Assembly (NCBI GenBank): GCA_014687725.1
Contig: GCA_014687725.1_4094.1
Length of the DNA: 64,000 nucleotides
Source: a phage
Strand: one strand, 5' to 3'
Below the pieces are notes generated by a model. It ran no database searches and had not been told where the DNA came from. It saw only the letters and a list, made by a program, of their open reading frames with translations. Shown here piece after piece: positions 39,625 through 54,555 of this stretch. Within the stretch, counting starts at the first letter, position 1. Every line of letters begins with the position of its first letter. Position numbers and translations under genes: made by a program.

Positions 39625-40287
39625 ATGATGAAAACAAAATTAGGTTTGTTTTATAAAAATTATTTCGTTAAACAGCGTAAATTTATAAAAAAATATTTCT
39701 CTGGTGAGAAGTCTAGTCCTATAATTTTTAAAAGACCAAGTTATAATACTTACTTAGCTGGTGCTAAACAGTCTAAGAAATTTATTACTCTTTTAAATAA
39801 AAACAAAATTAAAGCTTCTTATGTTGAAACGAGAAGAAACTCATCAATAACTCCTGGTGATTTTATTGAGTACGGATGTTTCAATATTAAGTACAATGAT
39901 AATACATACTTTATGGATATTGATTGTAATACATCCAATCTTTTTAACATTGTAGTAAATCCATTAAAACAATATAATGTTTATGGTGATTCTATTATCA
40001 AATTAATCAAAAACAAAGATAGCTTTGATTTTGAAATAAATGTTTTAGATGATAATTTTGACGAAGTACCAGTAAACCCTGAAATCTGTGATATTTTAAA
40101 CAGTTTAAAAGGTAGTACCTACAATATATCATCTGATTTAATGTTTCAGTACTCATTAATCCATAAAGATATTGAAAAGTATATTGAATGCTCCAAAATT
40201 TTGAATTATCTTTACGATGAATTTAAAAAGAGTTCTAAAATAACTGCATACACTTTGTACAATATTCCTAAAATGGTGAATCTTTGA
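39625..40287 (+). CDS. hypothetical protein (220 aa)
   Basis: AAGGAG RBS. Confidence 0.55.
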   Translation: MMKTKLGLFYKNYFVKQRKFIKKYFSGEKSSPIIFKRPSYNTYLAGAKQSKKFITLLNKNKIKASYVETRRNSSITPGDFIEYGCFNIKYNDNTYFMDIDCNTSNLFNIVVNPLKQYNVYGDSIIKLIKNKDSFDFEINVLDDNFDEVPVNPEICDILNSLKGSTYNISSDLMFQYSLIHKDIEKYIECSKILNYLYDEFKKSSKITAYTLYNIPKMVNL

Positions 40288-41420
40288 CAAATACAGTACT
40301 GGCAACTCCACCGTCTGTAATATATTGTCCAGTACTGTAAATTTGTATACCATCGGTTAAGTAAGTTCTGTATAAAGTTGCTGTAACATATACGTTATTC
40401 ATATTCATCTCTATTGGTAGTACACATTTGGTATAGGCCGACACATCTGTTTGTGTACCTATACCCAATTGACCTGCGTTATCGCCTGTGTTATAACCAG
40501 TTGCGTAAACACCTAATGAAGTTATAATATGATTAGAAAAATATGAATAACCCACACTGCTTCTTATTATATCACCTGGTGCTTGTGTTGTTTGTCTTAA
40601 CGAAATATATGTTTGTGATGTAGAACCATTTGCTAACTGACCAAAGTACTGTCCACCACCATGATATGCAAATAATTTATTAGTACTATTATTACTTGCT
40701 ATAGCAAAAGCGAAGTAACTTGAGTTTGTTGTATAATCTTTCACCGTATAGGTATTAGTTATTTGAGAACATAACGTGTACTTTGAATATAACGTCATGT
40801 CGGTTGTACCTACGCCTGATATTGCACCAGTATAATACAATCTCCCATCGGTTCCAATAAATCCTTGCATAAGAAAATTTGCCAGTATTTTGGATGGTGT
40901 TACTCCAGTAGGTACTGTTCCTTGTACAAATGATGAAAGTGAATCGGTACTTCTACCATTTCCCAGTTGTCCATAACTACCATAACCAGTATTCCATATC
41001 GTGTTGTCTGTACATAATACGCTTAATGCACCTGCACTAACTGCAATTTGTTTTATTGTTTTTCCTAGGGCTGTTATTCTATCAAACACTATCTTTGCAG
41101 AAGCCCACGTAGTAGACTTATCAGTTGATAAACCCAATGATGCACCATTCCCAGCGTACCACATCGTATTATCTTTCTTTTTTATTAAAGTTGACTCATA
41201 CCCGCACCCATATATCTTCTACGTTTGTATTGCATAAAACCCATTGGGTCTGTGTTATAATATTACCTATACCCATTTGCCCAAACTCTTGAGAGCCTCT
41301 ACTGTATAGTGTCCCGTCTGACATAAGGGCAAAAACTGTCGTATCAGATGAAGATATTTTGGTAACAGTAGGGGGTAGGTTCTTTTTTGATGATGTGATA
41401 ATTCTTCCAAAGGGTAGCAT
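40268..41420 (-). pseudogene. frameshifted RCC1-repeat paralog (array unit 1); N-fragment 41196-41420 plus C-fragment 40268-41164
   Basis: N-fragment MLPFGRIITSSKK ends at TGA; downstream frame continues with RCC1 motifs; shift maps to a G-run near 41207-41209. Confidence 0.55.
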
Positions 41421-41492
41421 TGTATCCTCCAAATGTAAATCGTTATTATATTTAGGACAAAAAAATGCCAGTACAAGGCACTGGCATAAAAT
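41421..41492 (-). promoter_or_regulatory. array intergenic module, diverged copy: terminator hairpin GCCAGT...ACTGGC, TATAAT, SD
   Basis: Minus strand reads hairpin plus T-run, AATATAATAACG, TGGAGG, ATG. Confidence 0.5.
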
Positions 41493-42662
41493 CTAAGCAG
41501 AAGGCATATCCTTCATTTTAATAAATGAAAATTGTGTACCAGTATTTGTGGTTTGATCAGTAAAATATGAATTACTACCAGCCCAGTACAATTCATTATT
41601 AACTATACAATATATAACAGAACTCGAACTCTGTGAATACACACGACTTATATTTGATGGTTCTACTCCAGTACTGAACTGAACCGAACCCAACTGTGAA
41701 CTTGGTATCACATCAGTTGGTCTACCTAAACCATTAACACCAGCCCCACCACCACATGTATATACCCCAGTACTATCAGTTGATATATTAACATAACCAT
41801 TTCCGGCATTTTCAAATAGTATTTCACTGGGAACAACACCAAATCCAGTAAGATCTATTTTCCTGAATGTAGTGTAAACAGTAGAACCACCAACACCTCT
41901 TCCACCATAATCATTAGAACCAGCCATATAGATACTATATCCAGAACTTCCTAAACATAATAACTGTACGTTGTCATATAATATTTGCATAGATATAACG
42001 TTATCAGGAATACTCAATACCGTAAAAGTAGTTAAAGAAGAACTTCCAATATTACTACCAACCGATGTTCCACATCTGTAGTACTTACCGCCTTTTATAT
42101 AATGGAACGATGAACCGCCTAACTTATGTGCTCCTATTGTACTTACCCCAGTATCTATAAGAATGGGAGATACAACTTTGTTATTAACACCTAACTCAGA
42201 TCTACTGTTCATACCGAACCCATATAAACGACCATCTAACATCAATATTAGTGTACTACCGGAAGTACCCGCTGACGTAAATTCTATATTCTTTATTTGC
42301 GACACGTCAATACCTACAAATAATGAAGTTACTTCAGTCCAGTTAACATATGAACCACTAGCCCCAAAATATCCACCCATGTATAGACCTGCACAATATA
42401 ATTTATTATCAACAGTCTTTATTAATGTACCGGATACACACGCCCAAAAATCATCAACTTCATAGGGTACATGTACCCAACCACCTAATACATCACTAGC
42501 ATCCCCTGTACCTAATTTATAGTTCGAACCAGAACCACGCATGTACATATTCCCTGTACTATAAAGTAATCCGACATGTAATTGACTACCATCCAATTTC
42601 TTTATTTCAGGAAGAGTTGGTTTAATATTTCCGTACTTTAACATTCTTCCAAAAGGTAACAT
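41493..42662 (-). CDS. RCC1-repeat beta-propeller protein, MLPFGRM-KYGN family (unit 2)
   Basis: N-terminus MLPFGRMLKYGNI; repeated G-x-N-x-x-G-[QE]-L-G motifs; AAGGAG RBS. Confidence 0.75.
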   Translation of the reverse strand: MLPFGRMLKYGNIKPTLPEIKKLDGSQLHVGLLYSTGNMYMRGSGSNYKLGTGDASDVLGGWVHVPYEVDDFWACVSGTLIKTVDNKLYCAGLYMGGYFGASGSYVNWTEVTSLFVGIDVSQIKNIEFTSAGTSGSTLILMLDGRLYGFGMNSRSELGVNNKVVSPILIDTGVSTIGAHKLGGSSFHYIKGGKYYRCGTSVGSNIGSSSLTTFTVLSIPDNVISMQILYDNVQLLCLGSSGYSIYMAGSNDYGGRGVGGSTVYTTFRKIDLTGFGVVPSEILFENAGNGYVNISTDSTGVYTCGGGAGVNGLGRPTDVIPSSQLGSVQFSTGVEPSNISRVYSQSSSSVIYCIVNNELYWAGSNSYFTDQTTNTGTQFSFIKMKDMPSA

Positions 42663-43042
42663 AATTTTCTCCTTAAATTTGTGGCAATTGGTATTCAGTT
42701 AAAGTCCATGTACCAACAACTGTCCCTACTGGAGACATACCAGTGTAGTATAATTTGCCATTCACATATGCAAATAATGCATTGTCATTCGCAGCAACCA
42801 ACGATGTTGACGGATCATAAACTACAGAATTTGGAAATTGTGCTTGGACGAAAATTGAAGCATTATTAGATGAATTGTTACCAAGCTGTCCATAATTATT
42901 ATACCCTGTTCCAAAAATACGACTTCCATTTCTATATAATAATCCCCTAGGATTTTGTGAATATGTTTGTATAAATTCAAAATCGGAAACATTAGTTAAT
43001 TGTAAATAAGTACTTTGTGGCGTTAAAGATATCTTATTAGTA
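42663..43042 (-). pseudogene. decayed RCC1-repeat fragment (remnant of unit 3 C-terminus)
   Basis: Minus-strand sequence encodes GTGYNNYGQLGNN but no ORF of 60 aa or more in any minus frame. Confidence 0.45.
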
Positions 43043-53304: not shown

Positions 53305-54453
53305 TCACTGCAAAAATGACATATCGACTTCGGTATAATTAAGAACGTTCTGTCCAGCAATACCTCCCATTACTACAATTGAAGCCCCACAATAATATAA
53401 CTTCGAAGTGTCAGTAAGTATAAGTGAACCAGATGGGGTGCGTACCAAATTACACGAAGTATTAAACGAAGTATATGAAGGGGTATAAGAGTACTGATTA
53501 ATATTATTACCAACACCTAATTGACCAGACGAGTTGCTTCCAGATGCATAAAGTACTTCATCACCTTTAACTATATGTGACGCCATGTTACCAACACAAG
53601 TATATAAACTATAAACTCCTGAACTCAATAATGTTGGAGTTTTGTATTGTATATCTGTAGATGAAGAAGTACCACCTGTGCCAAATTCGTTCCCGTATTG
53701 TGCACCGAACTGTTTACCACATGCGTACAAATTATTATCTGATTTAATAAAAAATGTACTCTGATAACTTACATCAAAATCTATAACATCCGAAGCAATC
53801 ATCGTCACCCCAGTAATAGAAGTTTGATTACCTGTACCTAACTGATAGTAATAGTTAAAACCACAACCCCATAAAGTATTATCTTCTTTTAGGTATATGT
53901 TACCAACTGCCTTTTTAACCGAAGTTATAGTATCTACCCTTTTGAATGTGTTAAAAGAATTAATGTTTGTACCATCACCAAATGATGATAGGTTAGAGTT
54001 ATTGTTAGCTCCACAACAATACAATGTACCATCGTTTGTTATCAAATTTACCTTCATATCATTAAAACTACTCATGTATTTTATATCAGAAACATTAATA
54101 CCACCTGATGTTATCCACGTAGTACATTCCGTCCACAAAGTTTTTCTATCAGTTACACCAGTGAATGCCTTCGTGTTACCAGTGATAAAAACTTTTCCAG
54201 TACCTTTCTCTTCATACAATTGACAATCACTACTGTTATTTTCCAATAGAACTCGTTTAACATTCTCCGCACTAAGAATAAATTTACTCGACGAAACACC
54301 TGTTCCAGTACCCCAATTCGTCGCAGAAGATGCATACAACTTATCAGTATAAGTATCATGAAGATACATGGAATCACTGGAATATATTTTAAAACGTCCA
54401 TCATCACCAGGGGCAATATTCCCGTACTTAATCATTCTAACAAAAGGTAACAT
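53305..54453 (-). CDS. RCC1-repeat beta-propeller protein (unit 12, 382 aa)
   Basis: MLPFVRMIKYGNI; motifs GSNSSGQLGVGN, GFNYYYQLGTGN; close paralog of unit 10. Confidence 0.8.
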   Translation of the reverse strand: MLPFVRMIKYGNIAPGDDGRFKIYSSDSMYLHDTYTDKLYASSATNWGTGTGVSSSKFILSAENVKRVLLENNSSDCQLYEEKGTGKVFITGNTKAFTGVTDRKTLWTECTTWITSGGINVSDIKYMSSFNDMKVNLITNDGTLYCCGANNNSNLSSFGDGTNINSFNTFKRVDTITSVKKAVGNIYLKEDNTLWGCGFNYYYQLGTGNQTSITGVTMIASDVIDFDVSYQSTFFIKSDNNLYACGKQFGAQYGNEFGTGGTSSSTDIQYKTPTLLSSGVYSLYTCVGNMASHIVKGDEVLYASGSNSSGQLGVGNNINQYSYTPSYTSFNTSCNLVRTPSGSLILTDTSKLYYCGASIVVMGGIAGQNVLNYTEVDMSFLQ

Positions 54454-54501
54454 ATTTCCCTCCTTATTCATTATATCATATTTACCCCATAAAGAAAACC
54501 C
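54454..54501 (-). promoter_or_regulatory. upstream region of array unit 12 (TATAAT and SD on minus strand)
   Basis: Minus strand GATATAATGAATAAGGAGGGAAAT then ATG. Confidence 0.5.
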
Positions 54502-54530
54502 TTGACATCCTTTCAGTACTGGTGTACTAT
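54502..54530 (+). promoter_or_regulatory. divergent promoter TTGACA-N17-TACTAT for plus-strand small-gene array
   Basis: TTGACA 54502-54507; AAGGAG RBS before ATG 54556. Confidence 0.5.
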
Positions 54531-54555
54531 AGAAGGAATATAAGGAGAACTACAC

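What the first reader, a model, noticed from the sequence alone, without database searches (positions are those of the whole stretch)
40268..54555. Tandem array of 12 RCC1-repeat beta-propeller paralogs sharing a 13-aa N-terminal tag and a conserved terminator-promoter-RBS module
Twelve consecutive minus-strand genes all start with MLPF[GAVT]R[MI]-KYGN, including one frameshifted copy whose tag has diverged to MLPFGRIITSSKK. After about 13 residues they diverge into bodies full of G-x-N-x-x-G-[QE]-L-G-x-G repeats, the RCC1 blade signature, at lengths (about 370-400 aa) that fit a seven-blade propeller. Most units carry the same roughly 70-bp upstream block: hairpin GCCAGTAC-N3-GTACTGGC plus U-run (terminator of the upstream gene), TATAAT, AAAGGAGG, ATG. 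Units 4 and 5 are fused as an operon pair without it. Conservation at nucleotide level across tag and upstream block, against divergent bodies, suggests a cassette system: the tag may target the protein to the virion or another shared partner, and the conserved 5' block could serve as a recombination anchor for swapping bodies. I do not recognise this family from described phage systems.
Basis: partly seen in the sequence, partly recalled or inferred. Interest (0 to 1): 0.9.

Follow-up and report, generated by a model that had tools for sequence, protein, structure and literature searches.

The report
Shared address tag on swappable virion proteins
A jumbo E. coli phage carries twelve genes in a row that all begin with the same 12-residue peptide. 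The peptide most likely fixes a changeable set of binding proteins, currently mislabelled 'DNA condensation proteins', to the virus particle, and a repeated control element between the genes lets related phages swap them.

Summary
The window comes from a 121Q/PBECO4-like jumbo coliphage (Asteriusvirus).

- **Genes:** twelve minus-strand genes (40268-54453) start with MLPF-x-R-[MI]-x-x-Y-G-N.
  - Eleven are RCC1-type seven-bladed propellers. Two of these are frameshifted, not one.
- **Intergenic element:** nine units carry a conserved hairpin, T-run, TATAAT-like box and Shine-Dalgarno sequence.
- **What was known:** the RCC1 array is already annotated, and its proteins were detected in virions (phAPEC6). 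The tag and the cassette logic appear undescribed.
- **Tag distribution:**
  - It is conserved at protein level, with synonymous codon changes, across Rak2-like genera.
  - It sits on unrelated bodies: RCC1, Kelch, LamG, glycine-rich.
  - Tagged proteins are strongly enriched in virion proteomes (CBB 7 of 9).
  - In other myoviruses the same bodies carry a different tag (MLEML..).
- **Cassette exchange:** seven related genomes hold 28 body types in shuffled orders, and homology blocks end at the repeated element (42 of 48 ends).
- **Best reading:** an N-terminal virion-docking tag on exchangeable, probably external, adhesin-like modules, combined with PeSL-like cassette recombination. An internal, T4 CTS-like targeting role is not excluded.

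The parts
53305..54453 (-). U1: tagged RCC1-like propeller gene, 382 aa (MLPFVRMIKYGN)
   Evidence: Pfam RCC1/RLD; PHROG 4219
52122..53231 (-). U2: tagged RCC1-like propeller gene, 369 aa
50902..52050 (-). U3: tagged RCC1-like propeller gene, 382 aa (69% identical to U1)
49644..50831 (-). U4: tagged RCC1-like propeller gene, 395 aa
48400..49590 (-). U5: tagged RCC1-like propeller gene, 396 aa
47591..48328 (-). U6: tagged non-RCC1 gene, 245 aa. TNF-like beta-sandwich plus polyglycine ('brush') domain, PHROG 4474, related to Pfam Gly_rich_2 proteins.
46376..47518 (-). U7: tagged RCC1-like propeller gene, 380 aa (the modelled one)
45130..46305 (-). U8: tagged RCC1-like propeller gene, 391 aa
43934..45121 (-). 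U9: tagged RCC1-like propeller gene, 395 aa. It starts 8 nt after the U8 stop, with a Shine-Dalgarno sequence only and no hairpin or promoter-like box.
42673..43852 (-). U10: tagged RCC1-like gene with a +1 frameshift. The ORF is 269 aa (43043-43852) and the remaining ~130 codons are open in the +1 frame. The same frameshift is present in six related genomes. The 269-aa homologue, phAPEC6 gp007, was detected in virions.
41493..42662 (-). U11: tagged RCC1-like propeller gene, 389 aa. It directly follows the 3' part of U10, with a Shine-Dalgarno sequence only.
40268..41420 (-). U12: decayed copy. The tag has diverged (MLPFGRIITSSKK). A frameshift follows 74 codons, and the 298-aa remainder is at 40268-41164. 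It is frameshifted in all compared genomes.
53232..53296 (-). Intergenic element upstream of U2: hairpin 53278-53296, T-run, TATAGTATAATGAATAA box, AAGGAGG
52051..52115 (-). Intergenic element upstream of U3 (hairpin 52097-52115)
50832..50895 (-). Intergenic element upstream of U4 (hairpin 50877-50895)
49591..49655 (-). Intergenic element upstream of U5 (hairpin 49637-49655)
48329..48392 (-). Intergenic element upstream of U6 (hairpin 48374-48392)
47519..47583 (-). Intergenic element upstream of U7 (hairpin 47565-47583)
46306..46369 (-). Intergenic element upstream of U8 (hairpin 46351-46369)
43853..43916 (-). Intergenic element upstream of U10 (hairpin 43898-43916)
41421..41485 (-). Degenerate element upstream of U12. 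The hairpin 41467-41485 is kept, while the promoter-like box and Shine-Dalgarno region have diverged.
54454..54555 (-). Region upstream of the first unit. It holds a variant box (TATGATATAATGAATAA) and a Shine-Dalgarno sequence but no canonical hairpin. It is shared with the divergent + strand gene array.

Best explanation
This is the hypervariable accessory virion-protein locus of a 121Q/PBECO4-like jumbo coliphage.

**Gene architecture.** Each gene encodes three parts:
- a 12-residue N-terminal address peptide, M-[LI]-P-F-x-R-[MIL]-x-x-Y-G-N;
- a short, often proline-rich linker;
- an exchangeable binding module. Here that is eleven RCC1-type seven-bladed propellers and one tail-fibre-tip-like TNF/polyglycine 'brush' domain.

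**Role of the tag (inferred).** The tag docks all these proteins to one common site on the particle. That site is most likely on the outside (tail, hair-like appendages or capsid surface), so a virion carries a mixed, strain-specific set of adhesin-like modules.

**Role of the repeated DNA.** About 110 nt of nearly identical DNA stands in front of most bodies. It comprises the terminator hairpin, T-run, -10-like box, Shine-Dalgarno sequence, ATG and the tag codons. It has two effects:
- Each body is probably an insulated expression cassette (inferred).
- It gives the phage recombination system homologous anchors. Through them cassettes are replaced, lost, gained and moved, and tags are homogenised (shown by comparison of genomes).

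**Status of each step**
- *Shown here:* the anatomy, the folds, portability of the tag across folds and genera, protein-level conservation, and cassette mosaicism with breakpoints at the element.
- *Taken from the literature:* presence of homologues in virions.
- *Inferred:* docking by the tag, external location, adhesin function, and promoter and terminator activity.
For: **The tag is real and N-terminal only**
- There are 12 tagged starts in the window.
- 119 tagged genes were found in 12 loci from four clades. M1, P3 and F4 are invariant. R6, Y10, G11 and N12 are present in 83-90% of them.
- Synonymous codons differ between genera: Pro3 is CCT in 82 of 88 Asteriusvirus genes but CCA in 8 of 11 Mimasvirus and 8 of 10 Eneladusvirus genes. 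The constraint is therefore on the protein.
- A profile of the first 30 residues, searched against 1.84 billion proteins, finds 49 clusters. 44 match from residue 1. The other five are four ORFs called with extra residues upstream of the tag (or cut) and one repetitive false hit.
- tblastn with the tag hits only 61 phage records, all jumbo phages of at least 310 kb.

**The tag is portable and separate from the fold**
- Residues 1-20 (U7) and 1-10 (U6) have low pLDDT, while the bodies score above 90.
- The same tag sits on RCC1, Kelch, Laminin_G_3, PHROG 6011 and glycine-rich bodies in CBB, GAP32, BF, Yen9-04 and Hallingskeid.
- The glycine-rich and PHROG 6011/LamG bodies carry a different N-terminal tag (MLEML.., MEEMLL..) in roughly 150-kb myoviruses, at the same alignment position.

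**Tagged proteins are virion proteins**
- CBB: 7 of 9 tagged proteins were detected, against 54 of 554 overall (Fisher p = 1.8e-6).
- phAPEC6: 6 of 13 were detected, against 62 of 551 overall (p = 1.5e-3). Two tagged genes there are unannotated and so could not be detected.
- GAP32 gp001 was detected, and so were the GAP32 homologues of CBB_548 and 549, per the CBB supplements; the GAP32_530/531 sequences themselves were not read here.
- A truncated 269-aa copy (phAPEC6 gp007) is still incorporated.

**External or adhesin character**
- Polyglycine brush domains are regarded as antireceptors.
- The other bodies are propellers and lectin-type jelly rolls.
- The proteins are near-neutral, with about 12% charged residues and about 40% S+T+N+G.
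- phAPEC6 and CBB have hair-like tail and capsid appendages whose genes are unknown.

**Cassette exchange**
- There are 28 body types in 7 genomes, with indels, replacements and translocations.
- 42 of 48 megablast block ends lie within -50 to +80 nt of a unit ATG, an interval covering 11% of the array (p = 3e-34).
- Tag variants are mosaic relative to body type and are homogenised within WPEC3.
Against: - No experiment or structure shows the tag bound to anything. The docking partner is unknown.
- The mass-spectrometry data concern homologues, not this phage. Peptide counts are low (1-4 in phAPEC6), and no N-terminal peptides are available to say whether the tag is retained.
- An internal location is not excluded. 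phAPEC6 has an inner body of unknown composition, and its authors suggested the RCC1 proteins for it.
- Hair-like appendages do not track the tag cleanly.
  - GAP32 has tagged virion proteins but was not reported as hairy.
  - Agrobacterium phage Atu_ph07 is described as hairy but gives no tag hit.
- Block ends at the element partly follow from the element being shared by all units. They prove cassette-wise mosaicism rather than exact crossover points.
- The promoter-like box lacks a -35 and differs from the TATAAATA late consensus, which appears to be used elsewhere in the window.
Confidence: 0.6

Rival explanations
1. The tag is a capsid-targeting sequence in the manner of the T4 internal proteins. 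It would bind the scaffolding core and load the proteins into the prohead. They would end up inside the head, as inner body or ejected proteins, perhaps as diversified inhibitors of host defences. The tag might then be cut off by the prohead protease.
For: - T4 internal proteins are a highly diverse set sharing only a short conserved N-terminal CTS.
- The locus here is similarly hypervariable, and the proteins are in virions.
- phAPEC6 has an inner-body rod of unknown composition, and its authors proposed the RCC1-like proteins for it.
- Rak2-like phages have T4-like head genes, including a prohead protease.
- Low peptide counts would fit minor internal components.
- Beta-propellers are good inhibitor scaffolds (own knowledge: BLIP-II).
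Against: - No conserved Glu or (L/I)-x-E type motif follows the tag. What follows is a variable proline-rich linker running straight into the first propeller strand.
- The bodies include a tail-fibre-tip/brush fold and LamG and Kelch modules typical of surface binding.
- The proteins are 25-45 kDa, near-neutral and poor in charged residues, unlike small basic DNA-associated internal proteins.
- The same bodies in other myoviruses are annotated as virion structural proteins.
Confidence: 0.2
2. The tag has no addressing function. The conserved 5' end would be a by-product of tandem duplication and gene conversion, together with nucleotide-level constraints on the promoter, Shine-Dalgarno sequence and translation-initiation region.
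For: - Within Asteriusvirus the tag codons are nearly invariant, including third positions (for example AAG in 60 of 62 Lys9 codons).
- Tag variants spread between cassettes within a genome, which shows active gene conversion.
- The phAPEC6 authors read the array as tandem duplication.
Against: - The amino-acid motif is kept across four clades while codons change.
- It persists in arrays that have no intergenic element at all. Yen9-04 and BF genes are packed 8-12 nt apart.
- It heads unrelated folds.
- The only copy with a decayed tag is a frameshifted pseudogene.
- Bodies are only about 27% identical, so conservation of the tag cannot be recent common descent alone.
Confidence: 0.07
3. The proteins are what the database names say: regulators of chromosome condensation, or DNA-condensing proteins, that organise the 350-kb genome in the head.
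For: - Annotation in 121Q, PBECO4, JP4 and other records.
- The suggestion in the phAPEC6 paper, based on eukaryotic RCC1 binding nucleosomes.
- The label is still used in 2026.
Against: - The name comes from the fold only. The closest structures include UVR8, RPGR and HERC2 RLDs, which have unrelated functions.
- There is no basic tail or basic surface: pI is 5.3-9.2 and K+R is 5-8%.
- One array member and many tagged relatives are not RCC1 at all.
- Copy number and type vary between near-identical phages, which is odd for a core packaging function.
- CBB lacks RCC1 homologues altogether.
Confidence: 0.03

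Closest known systems
T4 internal proteins with the capsid targeting sequence (CTS)
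   Same: A short conserved N-terminal peptide is the only thing shared by otherwise diverse proteins. These proteins are encoded in a hyperplastic locus and end up in the virion.
   Different: - There is no sequence similarity to the CTS.
- No protease-site motif follows the tag.
- The bodies are large, neutral binding folds, including a tail-fibre-tip fold.
- Location inside the head is not shown.
PeSLs (promoter-early stem-loops) of T4-type phages
   Same: Both are composite intergenic elements of about 70-100 nt with a stem-loop terminator, a promoter-like box and a Shine-Dalgarno sequence. Both are repeated through a hyperplastic region, and indels and replacements between related genomes are bounded by them.
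   Different: - The repeat here extends 36-42 nt into the coding sequence (the tag).
- There is no sigma-70 -35 box.
- The flanked genes are virion proteins of one addressing class, not early ORFans.
- The stem is GCCAGTAC/GTACTGGC, not G-run/C-run.
- Mini-circles were not tested.
N-terminal anchor modules of phage receptor-binding proteins (for example the motif shared by RaK2 gp526/gp529 and ViI-like TSP1/TSP3, or the docking helix of Pam3 gp24)
   Same: A conserved N-terminus attaches variable receptor-binding bodies to the particle.
   Different: Those anchors are folded domains or motifs of about 30-50 residues or more on fibres and spikes. Here the element is 12 residues and sits on globular monomer-type folds as well.
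Polyglycine 'brush' / TNF-like tail-fibre tip proteins (Pam3 gp24, Bxb1 gp33 and gp29, S16 gp38; Pfam Gly_rich_2)
   Different: U6 has the MLPF tag in place of a docking domain. It has no adjacent chaperone gene, and it falls below the Pfam threshold itself.
Eukaryotic RCC1-like domains (RCC1, UVR8, RPGR, HERC2 RLD)
   Same: Seven-bladed propeller with the G-x-N-x-x-G-Q-L-G repeat signature.
   Different: Sequence identity is 13-19%. There is no evidence of Ran, chromatin or DNA interaction. The context is a phage virion.
Capsid or tail decoration adhesins such as T4 Hoc
   Same: Non-essential, surface-exposed binding domains on a T4-related particle. hoc is itself associated with PeSLs.
   Different: Hoc is a single Ig-like protein that binds through its C-terminal domain (own knowledge). 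Here a family of 12 or more different modules shares an N-terminal peptide.

Membership tests
RCC1-like repeat beta-propeller (Pfam RCC1, RCC1_2, WD40_RLD) | Repeated RCC1 sequence motif recognised by the family models | tested here: met
   All 9 intact propeller genes hit PF25390 (E 1e-15 to 1e-28). 8 of the 9 reach the gathering score of PF13540 or PF00415; U11 stays below it. The two frameshifted copies show the motif in their reading frames. U6 does not hit.
RCC1-like repeat beta-propeller (Pfam RCC1, RCC1_2, WD40_RLD) | Seven-bladed propeller fold | tested here: met
   The AF2 model of U7 has pLDDT 90.7. Foldseek gives TM 0.76 to UVR8 over 382 columns, followed by RPGR, RCC1 and HERC2. 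Only one unit was modelled.
RCC1-like repeat beta-propeller (Pfam RCC1, RCC1_2, WD40_RLD) | Chromatin/Ran-related ('chromosome condensation') activity implied by the name | not testable with these tools
   Composition argues against DNA binding.
PeSL-type mobile regulatory cassette | Intergenic composite of stem-loop terminator plus promoter plus Shine-Dalgarno sequence, repeated in a hyperplastic region | tested here: inconclusive
   The hairpin with T-run and the Shine-Dalgarno sequence are present in nine copies. The promoter part is only a TATAAT/TAAATATAG box without a -35. Activity was not measured.
PeSL-type mobile regulatory cassette | Indels and replacements between related genomes are bounded by the elements | tested here: met
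   42 of 48 block ends lie at the elements. Cassette orders differ in 7 genomes.
PeSL-type mobile regulatory cassette | Strong sigma-70-like early promoter | tested here: not met
   No -35 better than 3-4 of 6 at the right spacing. The flanked genes encode virion proteins, which are expected to be late.
PeSL-type mobile regulatory cassette | Formation of excised mini-circles | not testable with these tools
   Needs inverse PCR on infected cells.
T4-type capsid targeting sequence system | Short N-terminal peptide shared by otherwise unrelated virion proteins | tested here: met
T4-type capsid targeting sequence system | Prohead-protease cleavage motif after the tag | tested here: not met
   No conserved Glu-containing motif in the tag or linker. 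The specificity of this clade's protease is unknown, so the test is weak.
T4-type capsid targeting sequence system | Location inside the head and ejection into the host | not testable with these tools
   No localisation data exist for any tagged protein.
Tail-fibre tip / polyglycine 'brush' domain proteins (Pam3 gp24-like) | TNF-like beta-sandwich followed by a glycine-rich lattice domain | tested here: met
Tail-fibre tip / polyglycine 'brush' domain proteins (Pam3 gp24-like) | N-terminal helical docking domain, and a dedicated chaperone gene next to it | tested here: not met
   The U6 N-terminus is the 12-residue tag. Its neighbours are RCC1 genes.
Pfam PF21722 Gly_rich_2 | Score above the family's gathering threshold | tested here: not met
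   U6 gives no hit at E <= 1. More distant homologues of U6 do carry PF21722, so it is a divergent relative.

The most novel reading that the evidence does not exclude
Large myoviruses use short, lineage-specific N-terminal 'address codes' as a plug-and-socket system. The codes are MLPF-x-R-M-x-x-Y-G-N in Rak2-like jumbo phages and M-L-E-M-L-L in roughly 150-kb Vequintavirinae-like phages. Any binding domain that acquires the code is displayed on a common site of the virion. In the jumbo phages, the tagged proteins would be the hitherto unidentified components, or the cargo, of the hair-like appendages on tail and head. The code-plus-regulatory repeat would double as the recombination site that keeps the repertoire turning over. 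This would be a natural multivalent display platform, and a 12-residue tag usable for engineering.
Probability: 0.35. Interest if true: 0.8.

Novelty: new variant of a known kind. Interest (0 to 1): 0.62.

Why it matters
- **Annotation.** Dozens of jumbo-phage records label these genes 'regulator of chromosome condensation' or 'DNA condensation protein', purely on fold. The evidence here points instead to a repertoire of virion-attached binding modules.
- **Open question.** The papers on phAPEC6 and CBB state that the genes behind the hair-like appendages and capsid fibres are unknown. The tagged family is a concrete, testable candidate set. It includes exactly the four CBB-specific structural proteins that those authors singled out: CBB_536, 537, 551 and 552.
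- **Mechanism.** A 12-residue portable address, if confirmed, would be a second natural example of tag-directed virion loading after the T4 CTS. It would also be a handy tool for decorating therapeutic jumbo phages.
- **Evolution.** A regulatory repeat coupled to a coding tag extends the PeSL idea of cassette shuffling to structural genes. It would explain rapid turnover in the host-interaction repertoire among near-identical phages.

Tried and rejected
- **Searches for solved structures.** PDB sequence and profile searches with U6, the U6 alignment, GAP31_108 and GAP31_106 found no solved phage homologue. The structures therefore give no virion location.
- **Peptide-level MS data.** Supplements were checked for evidence on whether the tag is retained. 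The phAPEC6 paper has none held, and the CBB files list proteins only.
- **IMG/VR scan.** A degenerate DNA pattern for the tag returned only 121Q and CBB themselves.
- **phiKp24 comparison.** I looked for capsid decorations in a tag-negative relative. phiKp24 has a different capsid (T=27, about 600-aa MCP) and is not informative.
- **Programmed frameshifting in U10.** The shift is +1 at CAAAATTCA, with no recognisable slippery site or stimulator, so I treat it as a conserved mutation.
- **Signal peptide or lipoprotein signal.** The tag has no hydrophobic core (inspection).
- **Literature on the tag.** A search for 'MLPF' with 'phage', and the jumbo-phage comparative review, contain nothing on this tag or on RCC1/Kelch expansions.

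Full report
**Where the window comes from**

Megablast of 40000-55000 hits 37 jumbo coliphage and Salmonella phage records (UB, JP4, 121Q, PBECO4, phAPEC6, G17 and others; Asteriusvirus). Identity is 85-98% but coverage is only 22-63% and patchy. The array is the only long minus-strand block in the window. It is flanked by two plus-strand arrays of small paralogous genes.

**Checking the observation**

- *Tagged starts.* A six-frame scan finds exactly twelve M-L-P-F-x-R starts. All are on the minus strand between 41420 and 54453, each 5-8 nt downstream of an AGGAGG-type Shine-Dalgarno sequence.
- *Where identity drops.* Anchored on the ATG, mean pairwise nucleotide identity is 0.91, 0.83 and 0.64 for successive 15-nt windows. 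It falls to about 0.33 from nt 45 onward. The propeller bodies have a median of 27% amino-acid identity; only U1 and U3 reach 69%.
- *Hairpins.* Nine units are preceded by GCCAGTAC-loop-GTACTGGC hairpins with T-runs. The pattern gives 20 strand-hits against 0.05 expected.
- *Promoter-like box.* The box TATAGTATAATGAATAA gives 15 hits at up to 3 mismatches against 1.75 expected. The aligned element is given.
- *Units without the element.* U9 starts 8 nt after U8. U11 follows the 3' part of U10 directly. Both have only a Shine-Dalgarno sequence.
- *RCC1 hits.* The nine intact genes of about 370-396 aa all hit Pfam RCC1/RLD models.
- *Frameshifts.* Two further copies are frameshifted but RCC1-like in their two frames. 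U10 is a 269-aa ORF with the remainder in the +1 frame. U12 runs 74 codons and then continues as a 298-aa ORF.
- *The exception.* The twelfth gene, U6 (47591-48328, 245 aa), is glycine-rich and has no Pfam hit.
- *Verdict.* The description is right in outline. It is wrong in calling all twelve RCC1, and it counts one frameshift where there are two.

**Folds**

- *U7.* Modelled with 28 aligned sequences, it gives pLDDT 90.7 and pTM 0.88 and is an all-beta propeller from residue 21. Residues 1-20 score 51-68. Foldseek places it with seven-bladed UVR8 (TM 0.76), RPGR, RCC1 and HERC2 RLDs. No phage structure appears among the listed matches.
- *U6.* It gives pLDDT 91.1, with residues 1-10 below 50.
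  - Polyglycine 'brush' domains are regarded as antireceptors.

**What was already known**

- The CBB paper notes multiple RCC1-like genes in 121Q (234-248) and PBECO4, and that GAP32 gp001 is a virion protein by mass spectrometry.
- The phAPEC6 paper counts eleven RCC1-like proteins and finds gp003, 005, 006, 007, 009 and 010 in the virion. It speculates that they order the DNA or form the inner body, and it reads the array as tandem duplication.
- G17's record annotates the hairpins as terminators.
- A 2026 paper still calls these 'chromosome condensation' proteins.
- I found no mention of the shared N-terminal peptide. The CBB paralogue table links only 536-537 and 549-553. The text search for 'MLPF' with 'phage' returned nothing relevant. 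The jumbo-phage comparative review does not discuss these families.

**The tag beyond this window**

- *N-termini in related phages.*
  - GAP32 gp001: MLPFSRIIQYGN. GAP32 gp002: MLPFARIFRYGD.
  - Five Yersinia fHe-Yen9-04 genes and five Serratia BF genes carry the variant MLPFPIISNTN.
  - Ten Erwinia Hallingskeid genes: MIPFARMIQYGNV.
  - Nine Pectobacterium CBB genes (CBB_536, 537, 548-554).
- *Bodies behind the tag.* These are RCC1, Kelch propellers (CBB_552, Hallingskeid CDS0073), Laminin_G_3 jelly rolls (CBB_548, 551), PHROG 6011 'virion structural protein' (GAP32 gp002, CBB_549/553), glycine-rich PHROG 4474 (U6, BF_0541/0543) and an SP19_190-like type.
- *Conservation.* Over 119 tagged genes, M1, P3 and F4 are invariant. 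R6, Y10, G11 and N12 are present in 83-90%. Synonymous codons differ between genera, so selection acts on the peptide.
- *Specificity.*
  - A profile of the first 30 residues, searched against 1.84 billion proteins, returns 49 clusters.
  - 44 match from residue 1. The rest are four ORFs called with extra residues upstream of the tag (or cut) and one repetitive false hit.
  - tblastn with the tag hits only 61 phage records, all of at least 310 kb, with 1-16 places each. Klebsiella is represented by a single record, and none of the listed hits is RaK2.
- *A second tag on the same bodies.*
  - Homologues of the U6 body in other lineages (contigs of about 150 kb, PVP-SE1 gp19) begin with M-[LIF]-E-[LM]-[LM].. 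at the position that MLPF.. occupies here.
  - In GAP31, the PHROG 6011 body (GAP31_108, MEEMLLTGG) and a LamG_3 protein (GAP31_106, MQEMLLGGL) share that other tag.
  - Bodies are thus exchangeable between lineages, and the N-terminal label is lineage-specific.

**Link to the virion**

- In CBB, 7 of 9 tagged proteins were detected in particles (2-8 peptides, 9.5-51% coverage), against 54 of 554 ORFs overall (Fisher p = 1.8e-6).
- In phAPEC6, all six detected 'DNA condensation' proteins carry the tag, out of 13 tagged genes. Two of the 13 are unannotated and so were undetectable (p = 1.5e-3).
- phAPEC6 gp007 is the 269-aa product of the same frameshifted gene as U10. A copy lacking the last blades is therefore still incorporated.
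- CBB_536, 537, 551 and 552 are all tagged. These are four of the six structural proteins that CBB has and GAP32 lacks, and the authors argued that such CBB-only structural genes should account for the whiskers.

**Outside or inside the head**

*For an external, adhesin-like role*
- U6 has a tail-fibre-tip fold.
- The other bodies are LamG and propeller folds.
- Composition is near-neutral, low in charge and rich in S/T/N/G.
- No conserved Glu-type protease motif follows the tag.
- phAPEC6, 121Q and CBB carry unexplained hairs and capsid fibres.

*For an internal role*
- The T4 CTS provides a precedent.
- The phAPEC6 inner body is unassigned.

*Caveat on the hairs*
- Hairs do not track the tag strictly. 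GAP32 has tagged virion proteins without reported hairs. Atu_ph07 is described as hairy but gives no tag hit.

I put external docking at roughly three times the internal alternative.

**The repeated DNA element and cassette exchange**

The element runs from the hairpin to about codon 14.

This gives 28 types, arranged on a loose backbone (A..B C D..E* F G*) with insertions, replacements and translocations. For example, type O lies between A and I here but between C and D in 121Q, and type H is first here but central in G17.
- *Block ends.* Of 48 megablast block ends inside the array, 42 lie within -50 to +80 nt of a unit ATG, which is 11% of the array (p = 3e-34). Because every unit shares the element, this shows that whole cassettes are the unit of exchange. 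It does not give exact crossover points.
- *Tag variants.* These are mosaic with respect to body type. Type H carries VRMIKYGN, VRMMNYGN, ARMVKYGN or VRMFDYGN in different genomes. Seven WPEC3 units share VRMFDYGN. This indicates gene conversion inside the element.
- *Comparison with PeSLs.* This is the behaviour described for PeSLs in T4-type phages. There are two differences: the repeat continues into the coding tag, and no sigma-70 -35 is present.

**Promoter class**

- The box combines a perfect TATAAT with TAAATATAG.
- TAAATATAG also forms part of a TATAAATATAG site, preceded by its own hairpin and T-run, upstream of a virion structural gene at 26077.
- TATAAATA, the T4 late consensus and close to the ATAAATA motif proposed for CBB and GAP32 structural genes, occurs only twice in 64 kb against 13.8 expected. 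This suggests it is a used signal.
- The timing class of the array promoters is therefore unresolved.

**Verdict**

The finding is a real, non-random structure. The array itself is known, and its database names are probably misleading.

What appears to be new:
- the portable 12-residue N-terminal tag across unrelated folds and genera;
- its counterpart tag in other myoviruses;
- the coupling of the tag to a PeSL-like recombination and expression element.

The proposed mechanism has precedents in kind (CTS, receptor-binding-protein anchors, PeSLs). I therefore rate it a new variant of a known kind, of moderate to high interest, with clear experiments to decide it.

Noticed in passing
window 36803-39583 (+): Tandem array of about eight paralogous small membrane proteins (104-141 aa; PHROGs 27396 and 27618, unknown function), immediately next to the tagged locus. 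CBB has the same neighbourhood (CBB_539-546, 'putative membrane proteins'), so the two arrays are syntenic partners across genera.
   Followed up: partly
window 54556-58779 (+): About twenty back-to-back paralogous ORFs of 59-77 aa. They share an N-terminus M(N/H)KE(H)KEFY and a C-terminus ..LIYRY/LIFRY (PHROG 11711, unknown). They are divergently transcribed from the first tagged gene. The region has strongly negative GC skew and positive AT skew even though its genes are on the + strand.
   Followed up: no
window 25404-25411 and 26053-26060 (+): The T4 late-promoter consensus TATAAATA occurs only twice in 64 kb (13.8 expected). Both copies are just upstream of genes. The second follows a hairpin (GGTTGACTTCGGTCAGCC) and T-run in front of a virion structural gene (26077-27630). 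It is probably this phage's late promoter, and it is avoided elsewhere.
   Followed up: partly
window 42673-43852 (-); L001, L002, L009, L010, L011: The +1 frameshift in U10 (site CAAAATTCA) is conserved in all six compared genomes (a 269-aa ORF in each). The downstream frame stays open, and the truncated product is in phAPEC6 virions. This is either a tolerated old mutation or a used truncation. No slippery site was seen.
   Followed up: partly
L008 4953-5603 and 6159-6770 (GAP31_108, GAP31_106); proteins P0026-P0114: A second short N-terminal tag, M-x-E-M-L-L / M-L-E-[LM]-L, heads glycine-rich, PHROG 6011 and LamG_3 virion proteins in roughly 150-kb myoviruses (Vequintavirinae and metagenomic relatives). 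This mirrors the MLPF tag of the jumbo phages.
   Followed up: partly
L012 (WPEC3 array): One genome holds two tag classes: VRMFDYGN on seven units and ARMVKYGN on six. This could reflect recent import of a block from another phage, or two docking specificities.
   Followed up: no
window 7187-7205 and 7215-8369 (-): The only other sizeable minus-strand gene is a virion structural protein (PHROG 10468). It ends with a hairpin (GCCACTACATTGTAGTGGC, z = -6.6) resembling the array hairpins, and it has an ATAAATA motif upstream.
   Followed up: partly
window 34472-35896 (+) and 13166-14131 (+): An HNH/homing-endonuclease-like gene lies just upstream of the membrane-protein array; JP4 annotates a shorter homing endonuclease at the same place. 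There is also an RNA polymerase sigma-factor-like gene (PHROG 351).
   Followed up: no
window 58800-60750: A stretch without convincing ORFs. It contains short tandem repeats (22-, 10- and 24-nt units at 58912-58981 and 59850-59941). No tRNA genes are found there; the window's four tRNA genes are at 36-1884.
   Followed up: no
L002 2434, 6063, 7325 (phAPEC6): Three tagged genes, including the glycine-rich one, are not annotated in the phAPEC6 record. gp002 is annotated from an upstream start, and gp004 is a spurious ORF inside the gap. The published virion proteome could not have detected the unannotated genes.
   Followed up: partly
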